Sequence record: NC_049819.1
Direction: 5' to 3' (one strand)
Length of the DNA: 50,732 nt
Origin: Escherichia phage atuna
The translations under genes were made by a program, and so were the position numbers. Numbering within the stretch: position 1 is the stretch's first letter; the number at the start of each line of letters is the position of its first letter. The notes below the pieces were generated by a model. That model was not told the DNA's origin, did not search any database, and saw only the letters and a list, made by a program, of their open reading frames with translations. Of this stretch, positions 3,825 through 49,299 are shown one piece after another.

Positions 3825-5821
3825 TAAACAAACTCCCGTTTTGCAATGTTATCCTCACCTTTGCCGTTTTTGCGATGCGTTACGCGTACAGGAGGCATGA
3901 TGTGATGAGCGTATGACATTATTTTACGCGCATTTCTATAGCTCGCCACCATACCAGCAATCTTGCGATCCGGTATGTGCTGCAATGCTATTTTTCTCCA
4001 TATCGTCCGGCAAATGTTGCTTTCTGACTCAGGGAAAAATCTTTCGTATGCCTTGAACGTGTCGCCGTTGGCCTCAAGCTCATAGCAAAAAACAATTCCT
4101 TTCTGGTTTTTCGTCATATCAACGCGGAAAGATTTAACGTTGCACCAATCGTTTTTGGTGTAGTGCTTGCCGCTTAACTTCTCGTTAGGATCGACAAGAG
4201 AAATATCGCAACAACGGCAAACTCTCGCCACTACGTCGTTTTTTGTTCCGCAACCGCGCTTGATTATCTTTTTCGTTCTCGGATCTACCTGGTCCTCGCA
4301 AATTCTGTAAGTCCAAAAATGCTCGCATCTCTTCCCGTTATCGTCTACGTGCATACATCGGCGAGCGTAAAAGCTGTTTAGCGTTCCACATATCGGACAA
4401 GTCTTAGGCTCTTTCCCGTTTGTAAATCTCTTTTGGAATTGCGCTTGCTCAAGGATTGGATCGAAATACAAATCCCCTAACTCATCCATAGTACCAGCAA
4501 AATCCAATACAAGATGGTCTTTTTTCTTGAATCCCTGCTCAATGTGCCATTGCTTAAGCAGTCGCATACCGCGCCCCAAAAGCTGGATAAGCAATGTTAG
4601 AGATCCTATCTTTCTCAGTATTACAGAAGTATCCCAAAACGGAACGTTAACGCCAGTGGTAAGCGCCTGTACCTGGAAGATGTATTTTACTTTTCCCTCG
4701 TATGCCTCCCTCAGCCACTCTTTACGCTGATTGTCTCCAGTCTTGCCAGTTATGATCCTGTATTCAACGCCTGGCGGCAGTGCGGCGGCGGCCTCCTTGC
4801 AGTGTCTTTCCCCTGCGCATGTAACTAAAACTCCGTTCCTGTCTTTGCATATCTCATGGACTTTAGCCATGATTTTCTGTGTCATTGTTGCGTCTTGATG
4901 GATCTTTTCTTCCATCTTGCGCAATGTTTTAGCGTCAAAGTCTGAAACGCCATCCTCGCTACTGGCTTCGAACTCTGAAAGGTCATACCCCAGGTCGCCT
5001 ACGTCGCCGAAATTTGTTGGCACTACAGAACCGAATTTGATTAAGTAGTTTGTGTCTATGTTAGTCACCTGCTCACGCCAGAATCCCTTTTTGTTCTTAT
5101 CTTCAACCAGTATTGGAACCACGCCGCGAAATTCAGATCCAGTCATACCGAATATTCGCAATTCGTGCCCGTATGCCTCGCGACACCTGCGCATCATTTC
5201 CATGATTATTACCGTGTACTGTGTGCGTCCTGTTCCGAACATTGGATCGCCATTGGAATCAAATTGCTGTTCTTCTCCAATCAGTACAGGCAAATCCTTC
5301 TTAGTGGTCATCTGCTGGTAAGATTCATTATTTTCTATCGCGTCGGCGAGATCCTCCCAATCCACCTGGTGACATTCATCAATACCGATAACGTGCGGAA
5401 CATAATCACCTAACGACTTAAACAATCCGTTTACCACAGTGCCCTCAGAACCGACTACGATCGGAAAGTATGCGCTTTTTGTTTTCAGTCCGGCGCAATA
5501 GATTGAGTTTGGCACGCCAAGATTGCTGATCTCTTCTGAATCCTGATCAACAATTTCAGCCTGACGAGCAAGCACCATCATTTTCAATCCCATTTTGCGG
5601 CATTGCGCCGCAACCATCGCAAACATCAATGTTTTGCCAGCCGACACAGAAGCCTTAACAAAGAAAGGATGCTCATAGTTTTTCATGCGCTTTGCGATCT
5701 CGGCATACGCAACGCACTGATAAGGATAAGGCACTATATTGCCAACCGTGAATCGCTCTTGGATGCTTTTTATTACTGCCTCGCCTAACGCTGATATTTG
5801 TTTTTCGATATTTGGAATCAT
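3824..5821 (-). CDS. ATP-dependent SF2 helicase (DEAD/DEAH-like)
   Basis: Walker A SVSAGKT and motif II IDECHQ in 665-aa protein. Confidence 0.8.
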   Translation of the reverse strand: MIPNIEKQISALGEAVIKSIQERFTVGNIVPYPYQCVAYAEIAKRMKNYEHPFFVKASVSAGKTLMFAMVAAQCRKMGLKMMVLARQAEIVDQDSEEISNLGVPNSIYCAGLKTKSAYFPIVVGSEGTVVNGLFKSLGDYVPHVIGIDECHQVDWEDLADAIENNESYQQMTTKKDLPVLIGEEQQFDSNGDPMFGTGRTQYTVIIMEMMRRCREAYGHELRIFGMTGSEFRGVVPILVEDKNKKGFWREQVTNIDTNYLIKFGSVVPTNFGDVGDLGYDLSEFEASSEDGVSDFDAKTLRKMEEKIHQDATMTQKIMAKVHEICKDRNGVLVTCAGERHCKEAAAALPPGVEYRIITGKTGDNQRKEWLREAYEGKVKYIFQVQALTTGVNVPFWDTSVILRKIGSLTLLIQLLGRGMRLLKQWHIEQGFKKKDHLVLDFAGTMDELGDLYFDPILEQAQFQKRFTNGKEPKTCPICGTLNSFYARRCMHVDDNGKRCEHFWTYRICEDQVDPRTKKIIKRGCGTKNDVVARVCRCCDISLVDPNEKLSGKHYTKNDWCNVKSFRVDMTKNQKGIVFCYELEANGDTFKAYERFFPESESNICRTIWRKIALQHIPDRKIAGMVASYRNARKIMSYAHHIMPPVRVTHRKNGKGEDNIAKREFV

Positions 5822-5878
5822 CTTAAACCTTTAAAAAATGCCATTTGGAGTATATAATAGACTCATTACAATAAACTG

Positions 5879-5898
5879 TTTTAACAAAAAATGCTATG
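5879..5898 (-). promoter_or_regulatory. Conserved motif variant (TTTTAACAAAAAATGCTATG on plus) in divergent helicase / HTH-gene intergenic region
   Basis: Minus-strand reading gives motif then TATTAT 22 nt after TTGTTA, upstream of helicase; on plus strand the motif abuts the SD (GAGG) of gene 5909. Confidence 0.5.
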
Positions 5899-5908
5899 AG
5901 GTGACTAG

Positions 5909-6385
5909 ATGAAAGATGCACGAATTGCAGTATCTACTGGTGAGATCGACAAGCGCACTATTAACGGTAACAACGGAACGCGACGAGGTAAAGACAAAAA
6001 GCCACGAAAACACCGAACCGGATTTCTTATCCTGCGAGATGAGGTAAAAGCAAGCCTGAAATCTCGCCTTGACATTCTGATCGAGTATTACGGCGGTGTT
6101 CCTGCTATGGCCCGACGTCTGCGCGTATCTCAGCAAGTCGTTAACCAGTGGCGAAAGCGTGGTATGATTTCAGCCGCTGGAGCACAAAAGGTGCATAACG
6201 ACTACAAATATAATGGGTGCAAAGGATACCGCGCATCATTTTGTCGTCCAGATCTGCGGTTTGATTCTAACGGCAAGCCTCTTACTACCCGTTGCGACAA
6301 ATACGAAATGTTGCGCGTAGTCAAAAATTCAGACTACGAACCAGGCGGACGATTCTACAAAGGTGATAACAGCACGAATAGCTAA
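5909..6385 (+). CDS. HTH DNA-binding protein (Cro/YdaS-like motif)
   Basis: VPAMARRLRVSQQVVNQWRKRGMIS helix-turn-helix-like segment; SD gagg upstream. Confidence 0.5.
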   Translation: MKDARIAVSTGEIDKRTINGNNGTRRGKDKKPRKHRTGFLILRDEVKASLKSRLDILIEYYGGVPAMARRLRVSQQVVNQWRKRGMISAAGAQKVHNDYKYNGCKGYRASFCRPDLRFDSNGKPLTTRCDKYEMLRVVKNSDYEPGGRFYKGDNSTNS

Positions 6386-6392
6386 TGATAAG

Positions 6393-6428
6393 GCCCAGCG
6401 AAATGATAATATTTGCTGGGCTTTTTTA
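6393..6428 (+). terminator. Hairpin + T-run between HTH gene and primase-like gene
   Basis: gcccagcg...tgctgggc dyad followed by TTTTTTATT, then SD gagg and ATG 6441. Confidence 0.45.
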
Positions 6429-6440
6429 TTGAGGTTTGCC

Positions 6441-7370
6441 ATGAATACTGAAAACTTTATGACCTATCAGAAAGAAGATGTTTTACCATATATGAAGGGG
6501 TTATGGCGTGAAGCACTACAAAGCATTTGCGGACTGCATAGCGATGTTTTCAACAAAAAGCATCAGCCTTGCCCACACTGCGGCGGCAAGGATCGTTTTA
6601 GATGGACTGATAAGCTAAATGAAGAGGGCGACGGCGGCGCTATCTGCAACGTATGCGGTAACGACACGGGGATCGGTTGGTTAATGAAATTAACTGGCGA
6701 ACCTTACAGCGAGGCCATCAATATTTTGGGTCGCTTCCTCGGAAAAGTGCCGCAGGATTACAGGATCAGAGCAAACAAACGCGCTTCGCGTTCTTCTGGT
6801 TACTCGTTCGGGAAACAGGCAAGTCATGAATGCTGCGAAAAAGTGATGGCAAAAACATTAAAATTCGATCGCACACCTTTAAGCGTTTATGAGGGGATAT
6901 ATCCGACGGAAGGTTGTCATTATGATTGCGGCGTCAAGGATGGTCGATACATTCACGCGCTACCTTGTCACTTGGTGCATGATGACGGGCTTGATGATGA
7001 AATGTGTAACGTGCTTTTCATTGATGAGGATGGAAAGGATTGGTTTTTAGCTCGCGACTACACGCGCGGATCTGTTGTTAAAACAGGTAGCACAGATAAG
7101 ACGATCTATTTGTGCCTTGATTGGGTTGATTCCCAGCATGTTCATTTATCAACTGGTCAAGAGGTGTGGGCTTGCTTTACTCCTTCAAATCTTGAAATGG
7201 TTGCGCATAGATATAAAGGAGAAAGAAGAATGCGAGTAGTCTGCCGGAAAGATGATCGTGATGTGATAATCGCGGCAGAGGAAAGAGGTCTTGACATAAT
7301 GATGCCTGTTGACGATAATTTTAAACAGGGCGTAGAAAGAAAACTCTACAAGCCCGAATCACTACTATAA
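6441..7370 (+). CDS. Putative DNA primase-like protein with N-terminal zinc ribbon
   Basis: CPHCGG...CNVCG zinc-ribbon; start moved from 6363 to ATG 6441 (SD gagg; upstream region forms terminator hairpin); position between helicase and tail fibre. Confidence 0.5.
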   Translation: MNTENFMTYQKEDVLPYMKGLWREALQSICGLHSDVFNKKHQPCPHCGGKDRFRWTDKLNEEGDGGAICNVCGNDTGIGWLMKLTGEPYSEAINILGRFLGKVPQDYRIRANKRASRSSGYSFGKQASHECCEKVMAKTLKFDRTPLSVYEGIYPTEGCHYDCGVKDGRYIHALPCHLVHDDGLDDEMCNVLFIDEDGKDWFLARDYTRGSVVKTGSTDKTIYLCLDWVDSQHVHLSTGQEVWACFTPSNLEMVAHRYKGERRMRVVCRKDDRDVIIAAEERGLDIMMPVDDNFKQGVERKLYKPESLL

Positions 7371-10945: not shown

Positions 10946-12001
10946 TCATAGATACTGCCTGAATTGAGCGCGGACCCAATCAGGAGTATCAAGATCAATT
11001 TCTGGTTGCCCGTTTGCATACGAAGGCCATTCATCTAACTGTTGGCAAACGTTGAACTTGTTGATCACGCTCATGTACTGGATACGCCCGATCTTCAATT
11101 GCTCAATGTTCATGCGGAATGCGAGCGGCAAGTAAGGCTCTTTCTTCTCTTGAGCAAGCAATCTCACAATTACTGGCCTTTCCTCGTCTGGATACGCCTT
11201 TTTAAATAAATCATGCTGCAAAGCCATTTTGAGATAATAGCCGTGATTGTAAGCCAGGCGCTGGAAGTCAACCGGATTTGCGCTAACCGTTGTTTTATAG
11301 TCAGTGATAATCACAGCTTCTGGATAGATGACTTCTTCATAAATCGGTCGGCCTTTTTCGTCGTAACCGTTAATGATTGTGGCCTTTACATCCTTGTTTA
11401 CGTCAACGTGATCAAGGCGCACTTTAACTTTTACGCCATTGATGATCCCGAATATTGACATTTCACGCTGCGCGGTTGGGCTATTCATGCAAGCATTATG
11501 CTCAGGTATTGCCTCAAGTACGCGCCGCATCGCTACACAGGCATCATAATCTTTCGCGTCGATTAGCTGCACGCCGTCCGCTGCGGCCTGGCATTCTGCC
11601 ATCATTTCGATAAGCCACCACACATTGAGATCCTCACCGCACTTGTACAGCATTTCCAGCAATTCAGGGTATTGCTTACCCGTCGTACCTTTCAGGCCAA
11701 AAGATTTCAGCTTTGAGGCTAACGCCGTTTGACTTGTGATCAGATCTTTAAAATCATCCTGCGACGGTGCGCGGCGATATGTTTTTTCGAATAACTCCTT
11801 GCTTTCAAAATTGGTATGCGACTGCGTACCGAAAACAAGTGCCTTAGTTTCCTGGCGAGGCTTGTACTTCCAGTACGCCGGGCAAGTGCTGTAAATCTCC
11901 GCCAAGCTGGAACCGCTGACGTATTCAGCCGTCCACGCGTTAGGATCATGATAAAGCTCATTGCTCATTTCTTCGCTAGTGTAGGCGTTAAAATCACTCA
12001 T
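10946..12001 (-). CDS. Recombination exonuclease (PD-(D/E)XK, RecE/YqaJ-like)
   Basis: 351 aa; VIITDYK-type D-x-K segment; first gene of exo/annealing/SSB cluster. Confidence 0.55.
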   Translation of the reverse strand: MSDFNAYTSEEMSNELYHDPNAWTAEYVSGSSLAEIYSTCPAYWKYKPRQETKALVFGTQSHTNFESKELFEKTYRRAPSQDDFKDLITSQTALASKLKSFGLKGTTGKQYPELLEMLYKCGEDLNVWWLIEMMAECQAAADGVQLIDAKDYDACVAMRRVLEAIPEHNACMNSPTAQREMSIFGIINGVKVKVRLDHVDVNKDVKATIINGYDEKGRPIYEEVIYPEAVIITDYKTTVSANPVDFQRLAYNHGYYLKMALQHDLFKKAYPDEERPVIVRLLAQEKKEPYLPLAFRMNIEQLKIGRIQYMSVINKFNVCQQLDEWPSYANGQPEIDLDTPDWVRAQFRQYL

Positions 12002-12140
12002 CTTTGATGCTCCTTGTTGCTTTGTGTGTGCATTGTAGCCATTTGGTTGATTTAGTCAATAGTTGTTTTGTTTTTTCTGTTTTCTAAACGTTCTTAGATT
12101 GCAAGAAAACAAATTTGAAACGTAAGTCAATGATTAATAT

Positions 12141-12350
12141 GTGTTATTTTTCTTGTTCCATTGTTCTCTCAGATACGCCGGATTATATACATACACATGA
12201 ATGATGGCACATACAGATACTCATAAAGAAAAATCACCACAAACAACCAAAACCACAAGAAACACAGATAACAAGAAAAAACAAATATACATACATAAAT
12301 AAATAAACTATTGATTTTATATGTATATATCTATTTTATTGATTGTTTAT
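12141..12350. repeat. A+C-rich strand-skewed low-complexity element, copy A (homologous to 42196-42510)
   Basis: Shared blocks tttttcttgttcc, cacatacagatac, gataacaa, acataaataaataa with copy B; plus strand almost devoid of G over ~150 bp. Confidence 0.6.
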
Positions 12351-12428
12351 TGCCCTTACGTTGGCTAAAATTTGCGCTAAATTTACGCCGTCTTAAATTC
12401 GATAACGCCGAAAAACAAAAAATAACAA

Positions 12429-12446
12429 GTAGCACTTTTTGCTAAA
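12429..12446 (+). promoter_or_regulatory. Conserved motif variant (GTAGCACTTTTTGCTAAA) + TATAGT upstream of lipoprotein gene
   Basis: Motif then TATAGT 21 nt after TTGCTA, then SD aaggag and ATG 12502. Confidence 0.5.
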
Positions 12447-12501
12447 CGCGCGCATTAAAATCGTGTATAGTTGAACCAACAACAACAAAGGAGATGAAAA
12501 G

Positions 12502-12771
12502 ATGAAAAAGTTAATTGCAGTTATCGCCACCGTAGCCGCTCTGACCGGATGCGCAGCGTCGCCTACTGGCGGCTTCAAAGAGATCGATTGCACGGCAAAA
12601 TTTAACGTTAAAACATTCCCTGTTAACGGATTCCATGAGGTCAAAATTAATGCAGTCCGCGAAAACAGATTCAGCCAAAAGCAATACAGGTTGAGCGTTG
12701 ACAATAAAGAAGTTAAGTTTATCAACCGCTGGCAAAATGAAAGTAAATTTATTGATTTGAGGTGTAATTAA
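12502..12771 (+). CDS. Outer-membrane lipoprotein, candidate superinfection-exclusion protein (Cor/Llp-like)
   Basis: Signal peptide with lipobox LTGC (MKKLIAVIATVAALTGC); small size; location beside tail-fibre genes. Confidence 0.55.
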   Translation: MKKLIAVIATVAALTGCAASPTGGFKEIDCTAKFNVKTFPVNGFHEVKINAVRENRFSQKQYRLSVDNKEVKFINRWQNESKFIDLRCN

Positions 12772-41685: not shown

Positions 41686-42146
41686 TGTTCATCCTCCAGG
41701 AAAGTTTTTTTGATCATCGCGTGAAAGTCAGCGACGGCCTTTGATAATGTTTCATACTCTTCCGGCGCATAGTTTGCCAGGTTTGGCGACATATCAATGA
41801 TCGCCTCTGCAACCTTGCGCTTAGCCTGGCGCACCGCCCTTTCCAGTGCCTCTTTGTTGTAAACCTTGCGACGGCCTTCAACAATCCGCACCTCGTAGAA
41901 AGTGCTACCGAAGTTTTCATCTTCCGGCCCGTAAACGCCACGGGTAACGGATACGCGCCCCCGCTCGGCGACTTCTGGCACTCGACTCATGATCTGGCGA
42001 ATGTAGGCCGCCGGATTGCTTGCCGACTTCTTGCCGAACATGTGGACCTGCAAATACGCGTCAGGAATCTTGATCGTCTCTTCCTCGCCATTAGCCAGCA
42101 TAATAGCGGCACGGCGCAGCGTGTCAGTGAATGATTGCTCGCTCAT
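41682..42146 (-). CDS. Hypothetical early protein (154 aa)
   Basis: Start at ATG (MSEQSF) after CAGGAGGTAG; first gene of leftward early arm. Confidence 0.5.
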   Translation of the reverse strand: MSEQSFTDTLRRAAIMLANGEEETIKIPDAYLQVHMFGKKSASNPAAYIRQIMSRVPEVAERGRVSVTRGVYGPEDENFGSTFYEVRIVEGRRKVYNKEALERAVRQAKRKVAEAIIDMSPNLANYAPEEYETLSKAVADFHAMIKKTFLEDEQ

Positions 42147-42174
42147 TTCTACCTCCTGGTTGTTAGGTGTGGGC

Positions 42175-42203
42175 ATTATCAATAATGCTATTTAATGTGT
42201 CAA
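42175..42203 (-). promoter_or_regulatory. Sigma70-type promoter (TTGACA-N17-GATAAT) for leftward early arm
   Basis: Exact TTGACA, 17-nt spacer, GATAAT on minus strand about 30 nt upstream of SD of gene 41682-42146. Confidence 0.6.
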
Positions 42204-42510
42204 CTGTTTTTTCTTGTTCCCGCGTGTTTTATCAATTTTACATGGTGGCACAATAACAATATAGGCGTTATTTTTCCTTATAAATCAATGTTATCATTGC
42301 CTGTTATCTAAGTTTTCTCGCGGAAAGTGCCATATAGATATATATACCCCTACATACCCATACACACATACAGATACACAAAAACTATATACCCCCACCA
42401 AATACCACAATAACCAAGATAACAAAAGAGAATATATAGATACATATAAATAAATAATCCTTATTTTTCAATGTATTATATAGGTATTGTTTGTTATTTT
42501 TTGTTATCGT
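42196..42510. repeat. A+C-rich strand-skewed low-complexity element, copy B (homologous to 12141-12350, with about 100-bp extra segment)
   Basis: Shared blocks with copy A; sits in the 640-bp non-coding region between divergent early arms. Confidence 0.6.
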
Positions 42511-42741
42511 ATTTTGCGGAAGGTCAACAAAAGAACAGGCGGGAACGTAACATAACAACCACTGACAGCCAGGCGGAAAAGTGAGGCAAGAGGGGAAGGT
42601 TTCACTATCTCCCATGCAACCAATGATTAAACGTGATTGCTTTTCTCATCAAATTTGCAAAGGCAATCATCATTTTGACGTGATTTGATTACGAATGATT
42701 ACTTTTGATTATTTCGATCACAATCCTGGCGCTAACCGTCA

Positions 42742-42761
42742 AATAGCACTTTTTGTTAAAA
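42742..42761 (+). promoter_or_regulatory. Conserved intergenic motif copy (exact) + leader CATCGAAACGAA for rightward early arm
   Basis: Exact 20-mer about 60 nt upstream of ATG 42821. Confidence 0.55.
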
Positions 42762-42820
42762 CTCAGGCCACCTGATCGGGTACATTACACACATCGAAAC
42801 GAACCGCTCAGGAGATAGCA

Positions 42821-43093
42821 ATGAACATCAGCAAAACCACTTTCAACTTCGCTAAGCGTCACGGTCTGGATCTGACTGTTGAAGATTTTGGCGATGTTCT
42901 GCAACTCTGCATTTGGGAAGCAGATAACGATTGCGAGTGGCTTTGCTCTTATCGTATCAACTACGATTGCTTGACCTGGCACGGCAATATCTATCTGCCG
43001 CAAGAAGTGAAAGAAGAATTGCCAGCGACTATCAACAACGAGGTTTTCTTGCGTCAGGTGCTGAAATTTATCAGTGAGGAGATCAAGAAGTAA
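42821..43093 (+). CDS. Hypothetical early protein (90 aa)
   Basis: ORF with SD caggagatag. Confidence 0.45.
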   Translation: MNISKTTFNFAKRHGLDLTVEDFGDVLQLCIWEADNDCEWLCSYRINYDCLTWHGNIYLPQEVKEELPATINNEVFLRQVLKFISEEIKK

Positions 43094-47718: not shown

Positions 47719-49299
47719 ATGTTTTCATTAGAAACGAACAAATTAACTCCACAGCAAATAATCGCTATGGCTGAAAGCCAGAACCTTTCACCAGTTCGCG
47801 TATCAATTCAGGCTAACGGCTATCGCCAGTCGTCCAGCTTTTGGGGCGACGTGAAGGATGTAAATAGCGGTCACGATCGCTACCCCGTAATTTCTCTTGG
47901 TAATGATATTGATGTTGTCGGCAAGCTATCACGCAGTATTGCGCGATCCGTTCAATTCCCTGAATCATCGGCTTACATGCACTTTATCGGCTGCATTTCT
48001 GCCGCCATGCTTGGACGCTTTACGGTTGACTATCACGGGACCGATCAGCCGACTGCGCTTTACGTAGTTACAAGCCAGCCGCCGTCAACTGGTAAATCTG
48101 CGATCAACAGTATGGCTATTGCTCCGATGATTGCGGAAGTTGAGAAGATCAACGAGCAACGCCGCAAGGAAAGAAAGAAAATACAGGCAAAGTTGGCAGG
48201 TCTTGCAAAGGAGATGAAAAGCGAAAGATCAGGCGCTGATATGGAATCTCTATACCAGGAAAAAGAGGATCTGGAGGAGAAGCTGGAAAAGATGTGTGAT
48301 ATAACTTTCCCTGTTTCAGATACAACTCCAGAAGGCTTGGCAAAAATCAACAACAAGCAAGGTAACTTTGCCGTAATATCTGACGAAGCAACAAGTATTA
48401 ACAGTCTGTTAGGCTTGACCTATGCCAATAGCGAAAGGAAGACTAACAGTGAGCTAGTGCTTAAGGCGTGGGATAATGGTCACGTATCAATTGCCCGTGC
48501 TAATGCTGACAATAACATGAGTTTTCGCGCGCTTGGATGTATGAGCGTTATAGCCCAGGATGAAACGATAAGCGGAATCATGGATGCTGGATCTCGCGGT
48601 ATCGGTGTGAGTGAGCGCTTTTTGTTGGTCCGTGAGGAATCATTCTTAGGCCGTCGCTCATTCATTGATGAAAATGGTGATTCTACCTATGAGGCGGTGG
48701 ATCCTGAATTGAAGGCCCAATATTATCAATTGGTGCATAACATCATGAGCGAATCAAATATATCGCTGAAAATAAGCCGTTCAGCTATGCGAGTGCTCAA
48801 CATTGCTCGCCAGGATATGGAACCGCATCTTGCAGACGGCGGAAAGTATTCTCATACAATGTTACGCGGTGCGCTGGGTAAAATGGATAAACAGGTGATC
48901 AGGCTTGCTTCCGTCCTGCATGTTATCCGCAACTGGTTTAATCCTGCCGGATACCCGCAGAAGTCGAAAGAGATCGACGTGGAAACAATGCAAGAGGCGC
49001 TGATCATGTTTCAGGAATTGAGCAAAACATACATTAGCGCCGCCAATGCTTCTGGTTATGCTGGTGATGATGCTGAAATGGGTAAATTGATTGAATTGAT
49101 CACTAGACACGGCAAGGCTAATAAAGGGATTCTGAATATCCGCGCCCTGTACGAATCAGCGAGAAAGGTAAAACCTTTCGTTGGTCAGGCTGGCGTAATG
49201 AAGAGGATAGAGGGGCACTTGCTGCCAATGCTGGAAGAAAGAAATTATGTTTGCGTGATTAATGGTGTTATTTTTGTCAATCCAATACTGCTGGGATGA
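47719..49299 (+). CDS. P-loop NTPase-like protein of unknown function (526 aa)
   Basis: Degenerate Walker A PPSTGKS and Walker B-like FAVISDEAT; internal coiled-coil; largest early-arm gene. Confidence 0.55.
   Translation: MFSLETNKLTPQQIIAMAESQNLSPVRVSIQANGYRQSSSFWGDVKDVNSGHDRYPVISLGNDIDVVGKLSRSIARSVQFPESSAYMHFIGCISAAMLGRFTVDYHGTDQPTALYVVTSQPPSTGKSAINSMAIAPMIAEVEKINEQRRKERKKIQAKLAGLAKEMKSERSGADMESLYQEKEDLEEKLEKMCDITFPVSDTTPEGLAKINNKQGNFAVISDEATSINSLLGLTYANSERKTNSELVLKAWDNGHVSIARANADNNMSFRALGCMSVIAQDETISGIMDAGSRGIGVSERFLLVREESFLGRRSFIDENGDSTYEAVDPELKAQYYQLVHNIMSESNISLKISRSAMRVLNIARQDMEPHLADGGKYSHTMLRGALGKMDKQVIRLASVLHVIRNWFNPAGYPQKSKEIDVETMQEALIMFQELSKTYISAANASGYAGDDAEMGKLIELITRHGKANKGILNIRALYESARKVKPFVGQAGVMKRIEGHLLPMLEERNYVCVINGVIFVNPILLG

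What the first reader, a model, noticed from the sequence alone, without database searches (positions are those of the whole stretch)
12141..12350. Two diverged copies of a strand-skewed A+C-rich element in the two large non-coding regions (12141-12350 and 42196-42510)
Seen directly: both regions share ordered blocks (tttttcttgttcc; cacatacagatac; caaccaaa/ccaaatacca; gataacaagaaaa/gataacaaaagag; acatacataaataaataa/gatacatataaataaataa; tatt-rich tail) in the same orientation. Over about 150 bp the plus strand is almost free of G. They occupy the only two long non-coding stretches of the genome: upstream of the recombination operon and divergent lipoprotein gene, and between the two divergent early arms. 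Copy B carries an extra segment of roughly 100 bp. Candidates: replication origins or DNA-unwinding elements, recombination hot spots for the adjacent exo/annealing/SSB module, packaging-related sites, or an unstructured non-coding RNA.
Basis: seen in the sequence. Interest (0 to 1): 0.7.

Follow-up and report, generated by a model that had tools for sequence, protein, structure and literature searches.

The report
Paired candidate replication origins, T1-like phage
The two look-alike non-coding stretches are real, and every T1-like phage examined carries the same pair; they are built like replication origins (the easiest-to-melt DNA in the genome, flanked by short repeats that face each other), which gives the first testable candidates for where this classic phage family starts copying its DNA.

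Summary
Window 12207-12351 and 42364-42498 align far better than shuffled sequence, and both are strongly G-poor on the plus strand. The window is a Warwickvirus-like member of the Drexlerviridae (T1 family).

A profile built only from relatives finds exactly two copies in the window (12247-12358 and 42399-42509). It also finds exactly two, in the same orientation, in FritzSarasin, T1 and TLS.

The conserved part is not the A+C tract, which turns over in sequence and keeps only its composition. It is a 90-98 bp unit: an AT-rich core that holds the two least stable 60-bp windows of all four complete genomes, flanked by short lineage-specific repeats in opposite orientation (GATAACAA-type here, TGTAACA in T1).

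The same layout lies directly upstream of the gene for an MCM-like helicase (Pfam DUF3987) in phages whose helicase is only 36-41% identical. One of them has an (AAC)13 tract next to its core.

Best reading: two replication origins, or origin-like binding sites for a phage initiator (confidence about 0.55). Rivals are an operator region for the early and DNA-metabolism operons, a packaging accessory for copy B, or a non-coding RNA.

Nothing here is shown experimentally. The open literature I could search says the origin of these phages is unknown.

The parts
12247..12358 (+). Copy A of the conserved element, as delimited by a profile HMM built from relatives only
   Evidence: nhmmer E = 1.8e-13, plus strand; only two significant places in the window
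42399..42509 (+). Copy B of the conserved element (same profile)
   Evidence: nhmmer E = 1.9e-10, plus strand; 30,152 bp from copy A
12285..12335 (.). AT-rich core of copy A (45 of 51 bases are A or T); candidate DNA-unwinding element
   Evidence: The least stable 60-bp window of the genome starts at 12283 (-57.7 kcal/mol against a mean of -81.8, sd 5.1). It is also the most AT-rich 120-bp window. A perfect IHF consensus lies at 12304-12316 on the minus strand, one of only 5 in the genome.
42433..42480 (.). AT-rich core of copy B
   Evidence: The second least stable 60-bp window starts at 42423 (-59.3); the third in the genome is -65.6. The motif TATTATATAG (minus strand TATAAT) is conserved across the family.
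12185..12266 (+). A+C-rich, G-poor tract of copy A (A 44, C 20, G 7, T 11)
   Evidence: Sequence is poorly conserved among relatives but the composition is kept.
42330..42417 (+). A+C-rich, G-poor tract of copy B (A 41, C 29, G 2, T 16), with internal short direct repeats (TATATACCCCTAC three times)
12267..12284 (+). Left flanking repeat of core A, A-rich orientation: GATAACAAGAAAAAACAA
   Evidence: Matches the 18-mer TTGTTATTTTTTGTTATC on the minus strand with 2 mismatches. There are 3 such matches in the genome, all in these two regions, against 0.12 expected.
12336..12352 (+). Right flanking repeat of core A, T-rich orientation, degenerate (TTATTGATTGTTTATTG)
   Evidence: Inverted-repeat arms 12270-12302 / 12315-12347, 33 nt, 73% complementary; orientation map of AACAA/TTGTT
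12141..12166 (+).
   Evidence: conserved among relatives
12060..12084 (+). Further T-rich repeats next to the exoVIII promoter
12401..12428 (+). Outer A-rich repeats of region A (GATAACGCCGAAAAACAAAAAATAACAA)
   Evidence: the 15-mer AACAAAAAATAACAA is shared in inverted orientation with 42491-42505
42418..42432 (+). Left flanking repeat of core B (GATAACAAAAGAGAA)
   Evidence: Inverted repeat with 42494-42508, 87% complementary
42481..42508 (+). Right flanking repeats of core B, including the perfect 18-mer TTGTTATTTTTTGTTATC (two TTGTTAT units 10 bp apart)
42204..42221 (+).
42222..42329 (.). Extra segment of copy B, carrying three more ATAACA motifs (42253 plus strand; 42289 and 42302 minus strand)
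42526..42562 (+). Outer A-rich repeats of region B (AACAAAAGAACAGG...ACATAACAACC)
47719..49299 (+). MCM-like (DUF3987) helicase with a C-terminal winged helix; candidate protein acting at the elements (inferred)
   Evidence: Pfam DUF3987 E = 6e-44. AlphaFold model pLDDT 87; the best PDB fold matches listed (50 of 294 with E <= 10) are MCM subunits. Same strand as both element copies in every genome.
5909..6385 (+). Cro/YdaS-like helix-turn-helix protein encoded next to the primase; alternative candidate binder of the repeats (inferred)
   Evidence: A homologous HTH ORF sits between the element and the helicase gene in distant locus L096.
6363..7370 (+). DNA primase (zinc-ribbon type), part of the replication set

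Best explanation
Each copy is a replication origin, or at least an origin-like assembly site for a phage-encoded initiator.

Anatomy. The working unit is about 100-110 bp. It has an AT-rich, easily melted core flanked on both sides by short repeats that point toward each other. Here the repeats are GATAACAA / TTGTTAT, often as two units 10 bp apart. More repeats of the same kind lie further out in both orientations. An A+C-rich, G-poor tract lies on one fixed side of the core.

Inferred mechanism. A sequence-specific phage protein binds the repeats on both sides of the core. The candidates are the MCM-like DUF3987 helicase, through its C-terminal winged helix, or the Cro/YdaS-like protein encoded next to the primase. 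Binding distorts and opens the core, helped by the negative supercoiling left behind the promoters that fire away from the element. The helicase is then loaded and the phage primase starts synthesis, with the host polymerase doing the copying.

The two copies lie 30 kb and 20 kb apart on the circular map and would act as two origins, or as one origin plus an auxiliary site.

The A+C-rich tract is not a specific binding site. Its sequence drifts quickly, partly by slippage of short units, while its strand composition is kept. It most likely provides a structure-free single strand on one side of the opened core.

Shown versus inferred. Shown: the anatomy, its conservation, the copy number, the melting propensity, and the association with the helicase module. 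Inferred: who binds, that melting occurs, and that replication starts here.
For: 1. The similarity is real: alignment score 83 against 22 +/- 3 and 29 +/- 5.5 in two kinds of shuffle.

2. A profile built without the window's own copies finds exactly two hits in the window (E = 1.8e-13 and 1.9e-10). It also finds exactly two, in the same orientation, in FritzSarasin, T1 and TLS, and one per locus at the expected place in 65 partial loci fetched from relatives, most of which supplied the profile's own training sequences (nine did not).

3. In all four complete genomes the two cores are the two least stable 60-bp duplex windows: -53 to -59 kcal/mol against a mean of -82, sd 5, with the third at -63 to -66. 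They are also the two most AT-rich 120-bp windows in the three genomes tested (window, T1, FritzSarasin).

4. Short repeats flank the core in opposite orientation. The 18-mer TTGTTATTTTTTGTTATC, allowing up to 3 mismatches, occurs 3 times, only in these regions, against 0.12 expected. ATAACAA occurs 6 times in 1.4% of the genome and 14 times elsewhere (p = 3e-7).

5. The repeats differ between lineages while the architecture stays the same: TGTAACA in T1 (6 in the two regions, 0 in the other 47.6 kb), GTGAACA in TLS, and GATTACA, TCTACCGCAAAA, GGTAAGATTA and ATCCTCCGTAA in others.

6. The length of the unit is fixed at 90-98 nt in 21 diverse copies.

7. In TLS-type phages copy A lies between a terminator and a promoter of co-directional genes, so the element is not tied to a divergent promoter pair.

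8. In phages whose DUF3987 helicase is 36-41% identical (L096, L097, L099, L100), a 480-620 bp non-coding region lies directly upstream of a small ORF, the helicase and other replication genes (primase, ResIII helicase, DUF3799 exonuclease and, in L096, SSB, in varying combinations). That region has an AT core and repeats that are mostly plus-strand left of it and minus-strand right of it. TGGGGT occurs 11 times in the region against 0-4 elsewhere in the locus. L097 has (AAC)13 next to its core. In three of the four loci this region holds the least stable window.

9. The helicase is MCM-like with a C-terminal winged helix (family-level statement in PMC4889955). Self-loading helicases of staphylococcal pathogenicity islands use exactly such a domain on iterons that face each other across an AT-rich region (PMC9371898).
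Against: - There is no experimental datum of any kind: no marker frequency, no binding, no transcript map.
- GC skew simply follows gene orientation and neither supports nor contradicts an origin.
- The winged-helix region of the helicase is fairly conserved (44-89% identity to the window) even between lineages with unrelated repeats. It does not diverge more than the N-terminal domain. So the helicase may not be the protein that reads the repeats.
- The right-hand repeat of copy A is degenerate.
- In Drexlerviridae the elements are not next to the helicase gene: copy B is 5 kb upstream and copy A is 30 kb away.
- Both elements lie upstream of operons, so an operator or upstream-activating role fits much of the same evidence.
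- A -10-like TATAAT is conserved inside the core.
- No DnaA boxes and no GATC cluster are present.
Confidence: 0.55

Rival explanations
1. The elements are transcription-control regions. The repeats would be operators or upstream activating sites for a phage regulator, for example the Cro/YdaS-like protein. That regulator would switch the early and DNA-metabolism operons on either side (the exoVIII-erf-ssb operon, and the two early arms). The AT-rich core would be bendable upstream DNA or an RNA-polymerase entry site.
For: - In the window both copies lie between outward-firing promoters: sigma-70-like sites at 12059->12032 and 42203->42175, and the ATAGCAC...TAAA motif at 12429 and 42743.
- A TATAAT on the minus strand is conserved in the right arm of the core across very divergent members.
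- In distant phages the element is directly upstream of the replication operon, which starts with a small ORF; in L096 that ORF is HTH-like.
- The recognition-helix region of the regulator differs between the window and T1, as do the repeats.
Against: - No -35 element lies at any sensible spacing from the conserved TATAAT in any lineage I inspected (reading).
- The real promoters lie 100-250 bp away from the core.
- In TLS-type genomes copy A has no gene downstream in its forward direction.
- An operator region does not need to be the least stable DNA of the genome, nor to keep a fixed 90-98 bp unit with facing repeats.
- The repeats occur nowhere else in the genome, although about 20 other promoter-like motifs do.
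- Origin and autoregulation often coexist, so this rival may be an additional function rather than an alternative.
Confidence: 0.2
2. Copy B, and perhaps copy A, is part of the packaging (pac) signal recognised by the small terminase for headful packaging.
For: - The T1 and TLS records, which their authors opened at the mapped pac site, start about 190-200 bp from core B (PMC11447400).
- The SU57 paper places the genome end in the same untranslated region (PMC7718038).
- A second-hand report says that five ATATA repeats in T1 were once proposed as the pac motif (PMC8421802).
Against: - The record starts fall in a different feature, a run of TGATT(G) repeats (window 42619-42715), not in the shared element.
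- Copy A is 30 kb from that end and has only one such motif (12128-12137).
- Two equivalent pac sites would give two series of permuted chromosomes, whereas the classical T1 work describes one (my recollection, not checked here).
- Distant phages place the element next to the helicase gene; in L097 that spot is also about 2 kb from the terminase genes.
Confidence: 0.08
3. The A+C-rich tract is transcribed. It would act as an unstructured RNA (a sponge for an RNA-binding protein, or a small RNA) or as a Rho-loading (rut-like) site.
For: - C-rich, G-poor composition over 80-100 nt.
- A weak TTGTTC-17-TATATA arrangement at 12161-12189 could fire rightward (reading).
- The AT hairpin followed by a T-run could end a transcript.
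Against: - No Rfam match, even at E <= 1.
- No conserved secondary structure.
- Fold z-scores of only -1.5 and -1.75.
- The putative promoter is not conserved in spacing among relatives.
- The tract lies between promoters that fire away from it.
- Its sequence is the least conserved part of the region.
Confidence: 0.07
4. The elements are leftover low-complexity spacer: AT-rich, slippage-prone DNA with no function of its own, similar only because of composition.
For: Internal short direct repeats and microsatellite-like tracts, such as (AAC)13 and (TAA)n in distant relatives, show slippage. The A+C tract turns over fast.
Against: - The similarity exceeds composition-matched shuffles.
- Exactly two copies with fixed orientation and unit length are kept across genera, and across A and B positions. 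The window's copy A is closer to the B copies of other phages than to its own B copy.
Confidence: 0.05

Closest known systems
Replication origins of staphylococcal pathogenicity islands (SaPI ori), used by self-loading Rep helicases
   Same: An AT-rich centre, with short iterons on each side pointing in opposite directions. The iterons differ between elements. The helicase carries a C-terminal winged helix that reads them (PMC9371898). Here: an AT core, facing repeats that differ between lineages, and an MCM-like helicase with a C-terminal winged helix.
   Different: SaPI ori lies immediately downstream of rep and is single-copy. Here there are two dispersed copies, 5 kb and 30 kb from the helicase gene. 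There is a one-sided A+C-rich tract. The winged helix does not obviously co-vary with the repeats. Binding is untested.
Bacillus phage SPP1 oriL / oriR
   Same: A pac-type siphovirus. From memory, its two origin sites are homologous, lie tens of kb apart and are bound by one phage initiator. The held abstract (PMC3485210) gives only oriL as the replication origin, oriR as the 'late' origin that binds G38P, and recombination-dependent restart. Here: two homologous sites 30 kb and 20 kb apart, one of them next to the recombination operon.
   Different: SPP1 uses a different initiator (G38P) and, from memory, a DnaB-type helicase with a loader; also from memory, oriL lies inside the initiator gene. 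There is no sequence relationship. The role of the second site here is unknown.
Satellite phage P4 ori and crr (from memory: Flensburg and Calendar 1987; Ziegelin et al. 1993; not checked here)
   Same: Two separated cis sites carry the same short repeats (about 8 bp, TGTTCACC-type) and are bound by one primase-helicase-initiator. The T1 primase is annotated as similar to the P4 alpha primase. TLS-type repeats read TGTTCAC.
   Different: In P4 all activities are in one protein with its own origin-binding domain. Here primase, helicase and HTH protein are separate genes. The likeness of the repeat sequence may be coincidence.
Phage lambda ori
   Same: Iterons next to an AT-rich, strand-asymmetric region (from memory).
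   Different: Lambda ori lies inside the initiator gene O, its iterons are tandem on one side only, and it depends on the host DnaB. The TLS authors looked for this pattern and reported none (PMC11447400).

Membership tests
Iteron-flanked AT-rich origin of a self-loading helicase-initiator (SaPI-ori type) | Central AT-rich, easily melted segment | tested here: met
   The two least stable 60-bp windows in all four complete genomes, and the two most AT-rich 120-bp windows in the three tested
Iteron-flanked AT-rich origin of a self-loading helicase-initiator (SaPI-ori type) | [quoted passage not shown] | tested here: met
   Copy B: GATAACAAAAG on the left, and TTGTTAT twice on the right. Copy A: GATAACAAG plus AAAACAAA on the left, and a degenerate TTATTGATTGTTTATTG on the right. 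Copy A's right side is weak.
Iteron-flanked AT-rich origin of a self-loading helicase-initiator (SaPI-ori type) | The genome encodes a replicative helicase with a DNA-binding winged helix | tested here: met
   DUF3987, MCM-like fold, C-terminal H-E-H-H-E-E arrangement
Iteron-flanked AT-rich origin of a self-loading helicase-initiator (SaPI-ori type) | Origin adjacent to the initiator gene | tested here: not met
   5 kb (copy B) and 30 kb (copy A) from the helicase gene in the window. It is met in the distant phages L096, L097, L099 and L100.
Iteron-flanked AT-rich origin of a self-loading helicase-initiator (SaPI-ori type) | Repeat specificity matches the cognate initiator | tested here: inconclusive
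   The repeats are lineage-specific, but the helicase winged helix is not unusually divergent. The HTH protein differs in its recognition helix between the window and T1. There are too few independent lineages to test this properly.
Iteron-flanked AT-rich origin of a self-loading helicase-initiator (SaPI-ori type) | The initiator binds and melts the site, and the site supports replication | not testable with these tools
   Needs EMSA or footprinting, permanganate probing, marker-frequency analysis and plasmid amplification assays
Two-origin phage genome (SPP1 oriL/oriR type) | Two separated sites carrying the same repeat set | tested here: met
   Exactly two profile hits per genome, with shared repeats
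Two-origin phage genome (SPP1 oriL/oriR type) | One site lies inside the initiator gene | tested here: not met
   Both sites are intergenic
Headful packaging (pac) site | Coincides with the mapped end of the first packaged chromosome | tested here: inconclusive
   The T1 and TLS records open about 190-200 bp from core B, in TGATT repeats and not in the element. Copy A is nowhere near an end.
Headful packaging (pac) site | A single initiation site per genome | tested here: not met
   Two homologous copies in every genome
Sigma-70 promoter | -35 and -10 hexamers 16-18 bp apart | tested here: not met
   A conserved TATAAT exists but without a -35. The scans place promoters only outside the element, apart from one weak site at 12210->12182.
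Structured non-coding RNA (any Rfam family) | Match to a covariance model, or a conserved fold | tested here: not met
   (no match at E <= 1); RNAalifold predicts no pairs
Rho-utilisation (rut) site | C-rich, G-poor, unstructured stretch of at least about 70 nt within a transcript | tested here: inconclusive
   The composition is met. Being transcribed is unsupported, because the tract lies between outward-firing promoters.
oriC-like (DnaA-dependent) origin | A cluster of DnaA boxes and GATC sites | tested here: not met
   One one-mismatch DnaA box per region, about what chance gives. No GATC in 12002-12501 or 42147-42715.

The most novel reading that the evidence does not exclude
The one-sided A+C-rich, G-free tract may be a functional part of the origin rather than filler. 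It would be a structure-free, strand-specific single-strand track next to the melted core, on which the viral MCM-like helicase (or the primase) is loaded in a defined polarity. This would be a viral counterpart of the trinucleotide 'DnaA-trio' tracks of bacterial origins. It would account for three things: the tract always lies on the same side and strand relative to the helicase gene, its sequence drifts while its composition is kept, and a distant relative has a pure (AAC)13 array at the same place.
Probability: 0.12. Interest if true: 0.8.

Novelty: new member of a known kind. Interest (0 to 1): 0.55.

Why it matters
T1 is one of the seven classic T phages, and T1-like phages are common laboratory and fermentation contaminants. 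Even so, the two genome papers I could read say their origin of replication was not found (PMC11447400, PMC7718038), and one states that no iterons exist.

A conserved, duplicated element with origin-like anatomy gives two precise, short targets for marker-frequency, binding and deletion experiments. It links them to an MCM-like viral helicase family whose origins are unknown. It also offers a defined cis element for engineering or disabling these phages. If both copies fire, the family becomes a second example, after SPP1, of a pac-type siphovirus with two origins.

Tried and rejected
1. A+C tract as an array of degenerate repeats in one orientation. AACAA occurs once in 12185-12265, where composition alone predicts about two, so the tract is compositional and not an iteron array (the expectation is a hand calculation).

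2. Helical or triplet periodicity in the tract. There is only a weak autocorrelation at 9 and 18 nt (about 0.10), pooled over related sequences. This is not robust.

3. Conserved hairpin or cruciform in the core. Single sequences fold into an AT hairpin (z = -1.5 and -1.75), but RNAalifold finds no conserved pair in 20 diverse copies. What is kept is orientation and composition, not a base-paired register.

4. Covariation of the helicase winged helix with repeat type. Not seen.

5. Cumulative GC skew as evidence for an origin. The minimum at 42-43 kb coincides with the switch in gene orientation, so it carries no independent information.

6. Small ORFs in the elements (for example 12201-12302, 33 aa). 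They are not conserved in relatives.

7. Rfam at gathering and at permissive thresholds: nothing.

8. Host-factor sites. There are no DnaA-box or GATC clusters; copy A alone has a single IHF consensus.

9. Sequence search of the helicase against the PDB: nothing. The fold search was needed.

10. The T1 genome paper (PMID 14972552) is not held. I therefore could not check what its authors said about these regions.
Full report
**What the window is.** The window is essentially a complete genome of a T1-like siphovirus (Drexlerviridae, Tempevirinae, Warwickvirus). Region 42140-42830 is 98.7% identical to Escherichia phage tiwna. Region 12000-12520 is 93-96% identical to about 60 phage records. Region A (12002-12501) lies between the leftward exoVIII-erf-ssb recombination operon and the rightward cor lipoprotein gene. 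Region B (42147-42820) lies between the two divergent arms of small early genes.

**Check of the observation.**
- A local alignment of the two regions gives one colinear match, 12207-12351 to 42364-42498, with score 83. Dinucleotide shuffles give 22 +/- 3. Shuffles that keep local composition give 29 +/- 5.5, maximum 60.
- G is depleted to 10 and 7 per 150 nt, against 30.9 +/- 5.9 genome-wide.
- The regions also share long exact words in inverted orientation (15 and 14 nt) and a block, TAGCACTTTTTG, about 70 bp upstream of the rightward genes.
- FritzSarasin's curated annotation has no other gap above 300 bp, and the elements hold no conserved ORF.

**The element is family-wide and comes in pairs.** I fetched the exoVIII upstream region from 43 relatives (57-100% protein identity, T1 included). 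I also fetched the early-arm junction from loci found through the helicase.
- A G-poor window sits 165-230 bp from the exoVIII start in 42 of the 43 loci.
- An alignment of 60 A and B copies shows a common core...AACAnnGnnAACAA..AAAT-ATAGATATATA-(ATA)ATAAnTAA..TTT..ATGTATTATATAGAT..TTTGTTnTTTTTGTT.
- The window's copy A is closer to the B copies of other phages (86% over 51 nt) than to its own B copy. Its core B matches the A copies of others.
- A profile HMM built without the window's own sequences finds exactly two significant places in the window: 12247-12358 (E = 1.8e-13) and 42399-42509 (E = 1.9e-10). The next hit has E = 9.5.
- The same profile finds exactly two places in FritzSarasin, T1 and TLS. 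In every genome the two copies have the same orientation, on the strand of the helicase gene and opposite to exoVIII.
- From the outer AACA to the outer TTGTT the unit measures 90-98 nt in 21 diverse copies.

**What is conserved and what is not.** Among moderately diverged relatives, several parts are conserved: the flanking T-rich and A-rich repeats, a (A)TTTaCGCC / TTGCGG motif, and the core. The A+C-rich tract is the least conserved part in sequence and keeps only its composition. It is not an array of the flanking repeat, and it has at most a weak 9/18-nt periodicity. Copy B's tract contains its own short direct repeats, which suggests growth by slippage.

**Physical character.** Nearest-neighbour duplex energies put the two cores first and second among the least stable 60-bp windows in the window, FritzSarasin, T1 and TLS. 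The values are -53 to -59 kcal/mol against a mean of -82 (sd 5), with a clear gap to the third. The cores are also the two most AT-rich 120-bp windows in the three genomes tested (window, T1, FritzSarasin). Alternating purine-pyrimidine words (ATATA, ACACA, ATACA) are the most enriched k-mers.

**Repeats.**
- In the window the repeat unit is (G)ATAACAA / TTGTTAT, often two units 10 bp apart. The perfect 18-mer TTGTTATTTTTTGTTATC is at 42491.
- Allowing up to 3 mismatches, that 18-mer occurs three times, only in the two regions, against 0.12 expected.
- The A-rich orientation lies left of each core and the T-rich orientation lies right of it. Further copies lie outside in both orientations.
- The repeat changes with lineage while the layout is kept. 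T1 has TGTAACA, six copies in its two regions and none in the other 47.6 kb. TLS has GTGAACA / GGAACAA. Others have GATTACA, TCTACCGCAAAA, GGTAAGATTA, ATCCTCCGTAA, or C-rich and G-rich runs.

Lineage-specific repeats around a conserved meltable core are the signature of sites read by a co-evolving phage protein.

**Context argues against a purely promoter-linked role.** In the window both elements lie between promoters that fire away from them. In TLS-type genomes, however, copy A lies between the terminator of the tail gene and the exoVIII promoter, which are co-directional. There it has no gene downstream in its forward direction. A TATAAT on the minus strand is conserved inside the core, but no -35 accompanies it in any lineage.

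**Link to the replication machinery.**
- The 526-aa protein at 47719-49299 is a DUF3987 protein.
- Its AlphaFold model (pLDDT 87) matches MCM subunits in every one of the best PDB fold hits listed, and it ends in a winged helix. This agrees with the published assignment of the family to MCM-related replicative helicases (PMC4889955; helicase activity shown for one member in PMC11724360).
- In phages whose helicase is only 36-41% identical (L096, L097, L099, L100), a 480-620 bp non-coding region lies directly upstream of a small ORF, the helicase and other replication genes (primase, ResIII helicase, DUF3799 exonuclease and, in L096, SSB, in varying combinations).
- That region has an AT core (TTTATATAGGG, or ATATATATGGGGTAATGGGG) and repeats that are mostly plus-strand left of it and minus-strand right of it. 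TGGGGT occurs 11 times there against 0-4 elsewhere in the locus. L097 uses CTTACA / TGTAAG.
- In L097 an (AAC)13 array lies immediately 5' of the core, and in L098 a (TAA)n array does.
- In three of these four loci the region holds the least stable window.
- The small ORF of L096 shares its HTH with the window's 158-aa Cro/YdaS-like protein, which is encoded next to the primase.
- The window's exoVIII carries DUF3799. The genes downstream of the single element in compact relatives are therefore the ones that sit beside copies A and B in Drexlerviridae.

**Interpretation.** The anatomy matches origins used by self-loading helicase-initiators. In SaPI origins, iterons face each other across an AT-rich centre and are read by the winged helix of the Rep helicase (PMC9371898). 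Two homologous origin sites in one pac-type siphovirus have a precedent in SPP1 oriL/oriR (PMC3485210).

I therefore favour two origins, or an origin plus an auxiliary initiator-binding site, at about 0.55. Which protein reads the repeats is open. The helicase winged helix is not unusually divergent between lineages with unrelated repeats, while the HTH protein differs in its recognition helix between the window and T1.

The main rival, at 0.2, is an operator or upstream-activating region. It could well coexist with origin function.

**Packaging.** The T1 and TLS records, opened by their authors at the mapped pac site, begin about 190-200 bp from core B. They begin inside a separate run of TGATT(G) repeats, which corresponds to window 42619-42715 (PMC11447400; PMC7718038). 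A second-hand note says five ATATA repeats were once proposed as the T1 pac motif (PMC8421802). Copy A, 30 kb away, and the placement next to the helicase gene in distant phages both argue that the shared element is not pac itself.

**RNA.** There is no Rfam match even at E <= 1, no conserved fold, and only unremarkable fold z-scores.

**Novelty.** The TLS paper states that no iterons are present anywhere in the genome and lists the origin among open issues. The SU57 paper did not find an origin. Searches for T1-like origins, iterons or transcript maps found nothing. I could not read the T1 or Rtp genome papers. The kind of element is known; its identification in this family, in two copies and with a one-sided A+C tract, appears to be new. 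All functional statements are inference.

Noticed in passing
window 12429-12446 and 42743-42760, plus 19 other sites (for example 2320, 3391, 23591, 27344, 36189, 44047, 46973): The motif ATAGCACnnnTTGnTAAA occurs 21 times, against 0.02 expected. Most copies point in the direction of transcription of the neighbouring genes, a few do not (e.g. 7442, 23591, 27344). This is the 21-nt intergenic repeat already described in phage TLS, whose function is unknown. In region A a conserved TATAGT lies about 20 nt downstream, so it looks like a phage-specific promoter element.
   Followed up: partly
window 42619-42715: A run of TGATT(A/G) repeats lies to the right of copy B. The T1 and TLS GenBank records, opened at the mapped pac site, start inside the equivalent repeats, so this is probably the pac region. 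One copy of CAATGATTAA also sits in region A (12128-12137) and is conserved among relatives.
   Followed up: partly
window 12304-12316 (minus strand): A perfect IHF consensus (AATCAATAGTTTA) lies in the centre of core A, one of only 5 in the genome. From my reading, many other copies (L006-L010, L015, L051/L089 B) keep it, while copy B of the window and TLS-type copies do not.
   Followed up: partly
window 12002-12501 and 42147-42715: There is no GATC site in either element, although the genome has about 306 sites (one per 166 bp) and encodes a Dam-like methylase.
   Followed up: no
window 42140-42534 compared with relatives: Copy B is mosaic among close relatives. 14 of 82 matching records cover at least 80% of the query; the other listed records match only from about 42421 or 42534 rightward, at 88-97% identity. 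Copy A is kept at 93-96% identity in 62 of 63 matching records. Contig L050/L004 has a 100% identical helicase and a 99% identical exoVIII protein, but a different B copy (GAGAACAA-type repeats).
   Followed up: partly
one search hit list: Seven records labelled Campylobacter phage (host C. jejuni) match this E. coli T1-like sequence. These are probably contaminated or mislabelled records.
   Followed up: no
window 5794-5909: The third most AT-rich spot of the genome is the 88-bp gap between the divergent ResIII/SNF2-type helicase gene and the HTH-primase operon. It carries an ATAGCAT-type motif (5880-5897) but no copy of the core element.
   Followed up: no
L097 9391-9430; L098 1-30: Pure trinucleotide arrays, (AAC)13 and (TAA)n, lie next to the AT core upstream of the helicase gene in distant phages. 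The L098 contig ends inside the array, probably because the assembly broke at the repeat.
   Followed up: partly
window 12170-12184 and 12378-12390; 42317-42329 and 42513-42526: A direct-repeat motif, (A)TTTACGCC in region A and T(C/T)GCGGAA in region B, brackets each element about 200 bp apart. Versions of it (TTGCGGAGGATT, ATTTACGCC) recur at the same places across the family, T1 included. It is unexplained.
   Followed up: partly
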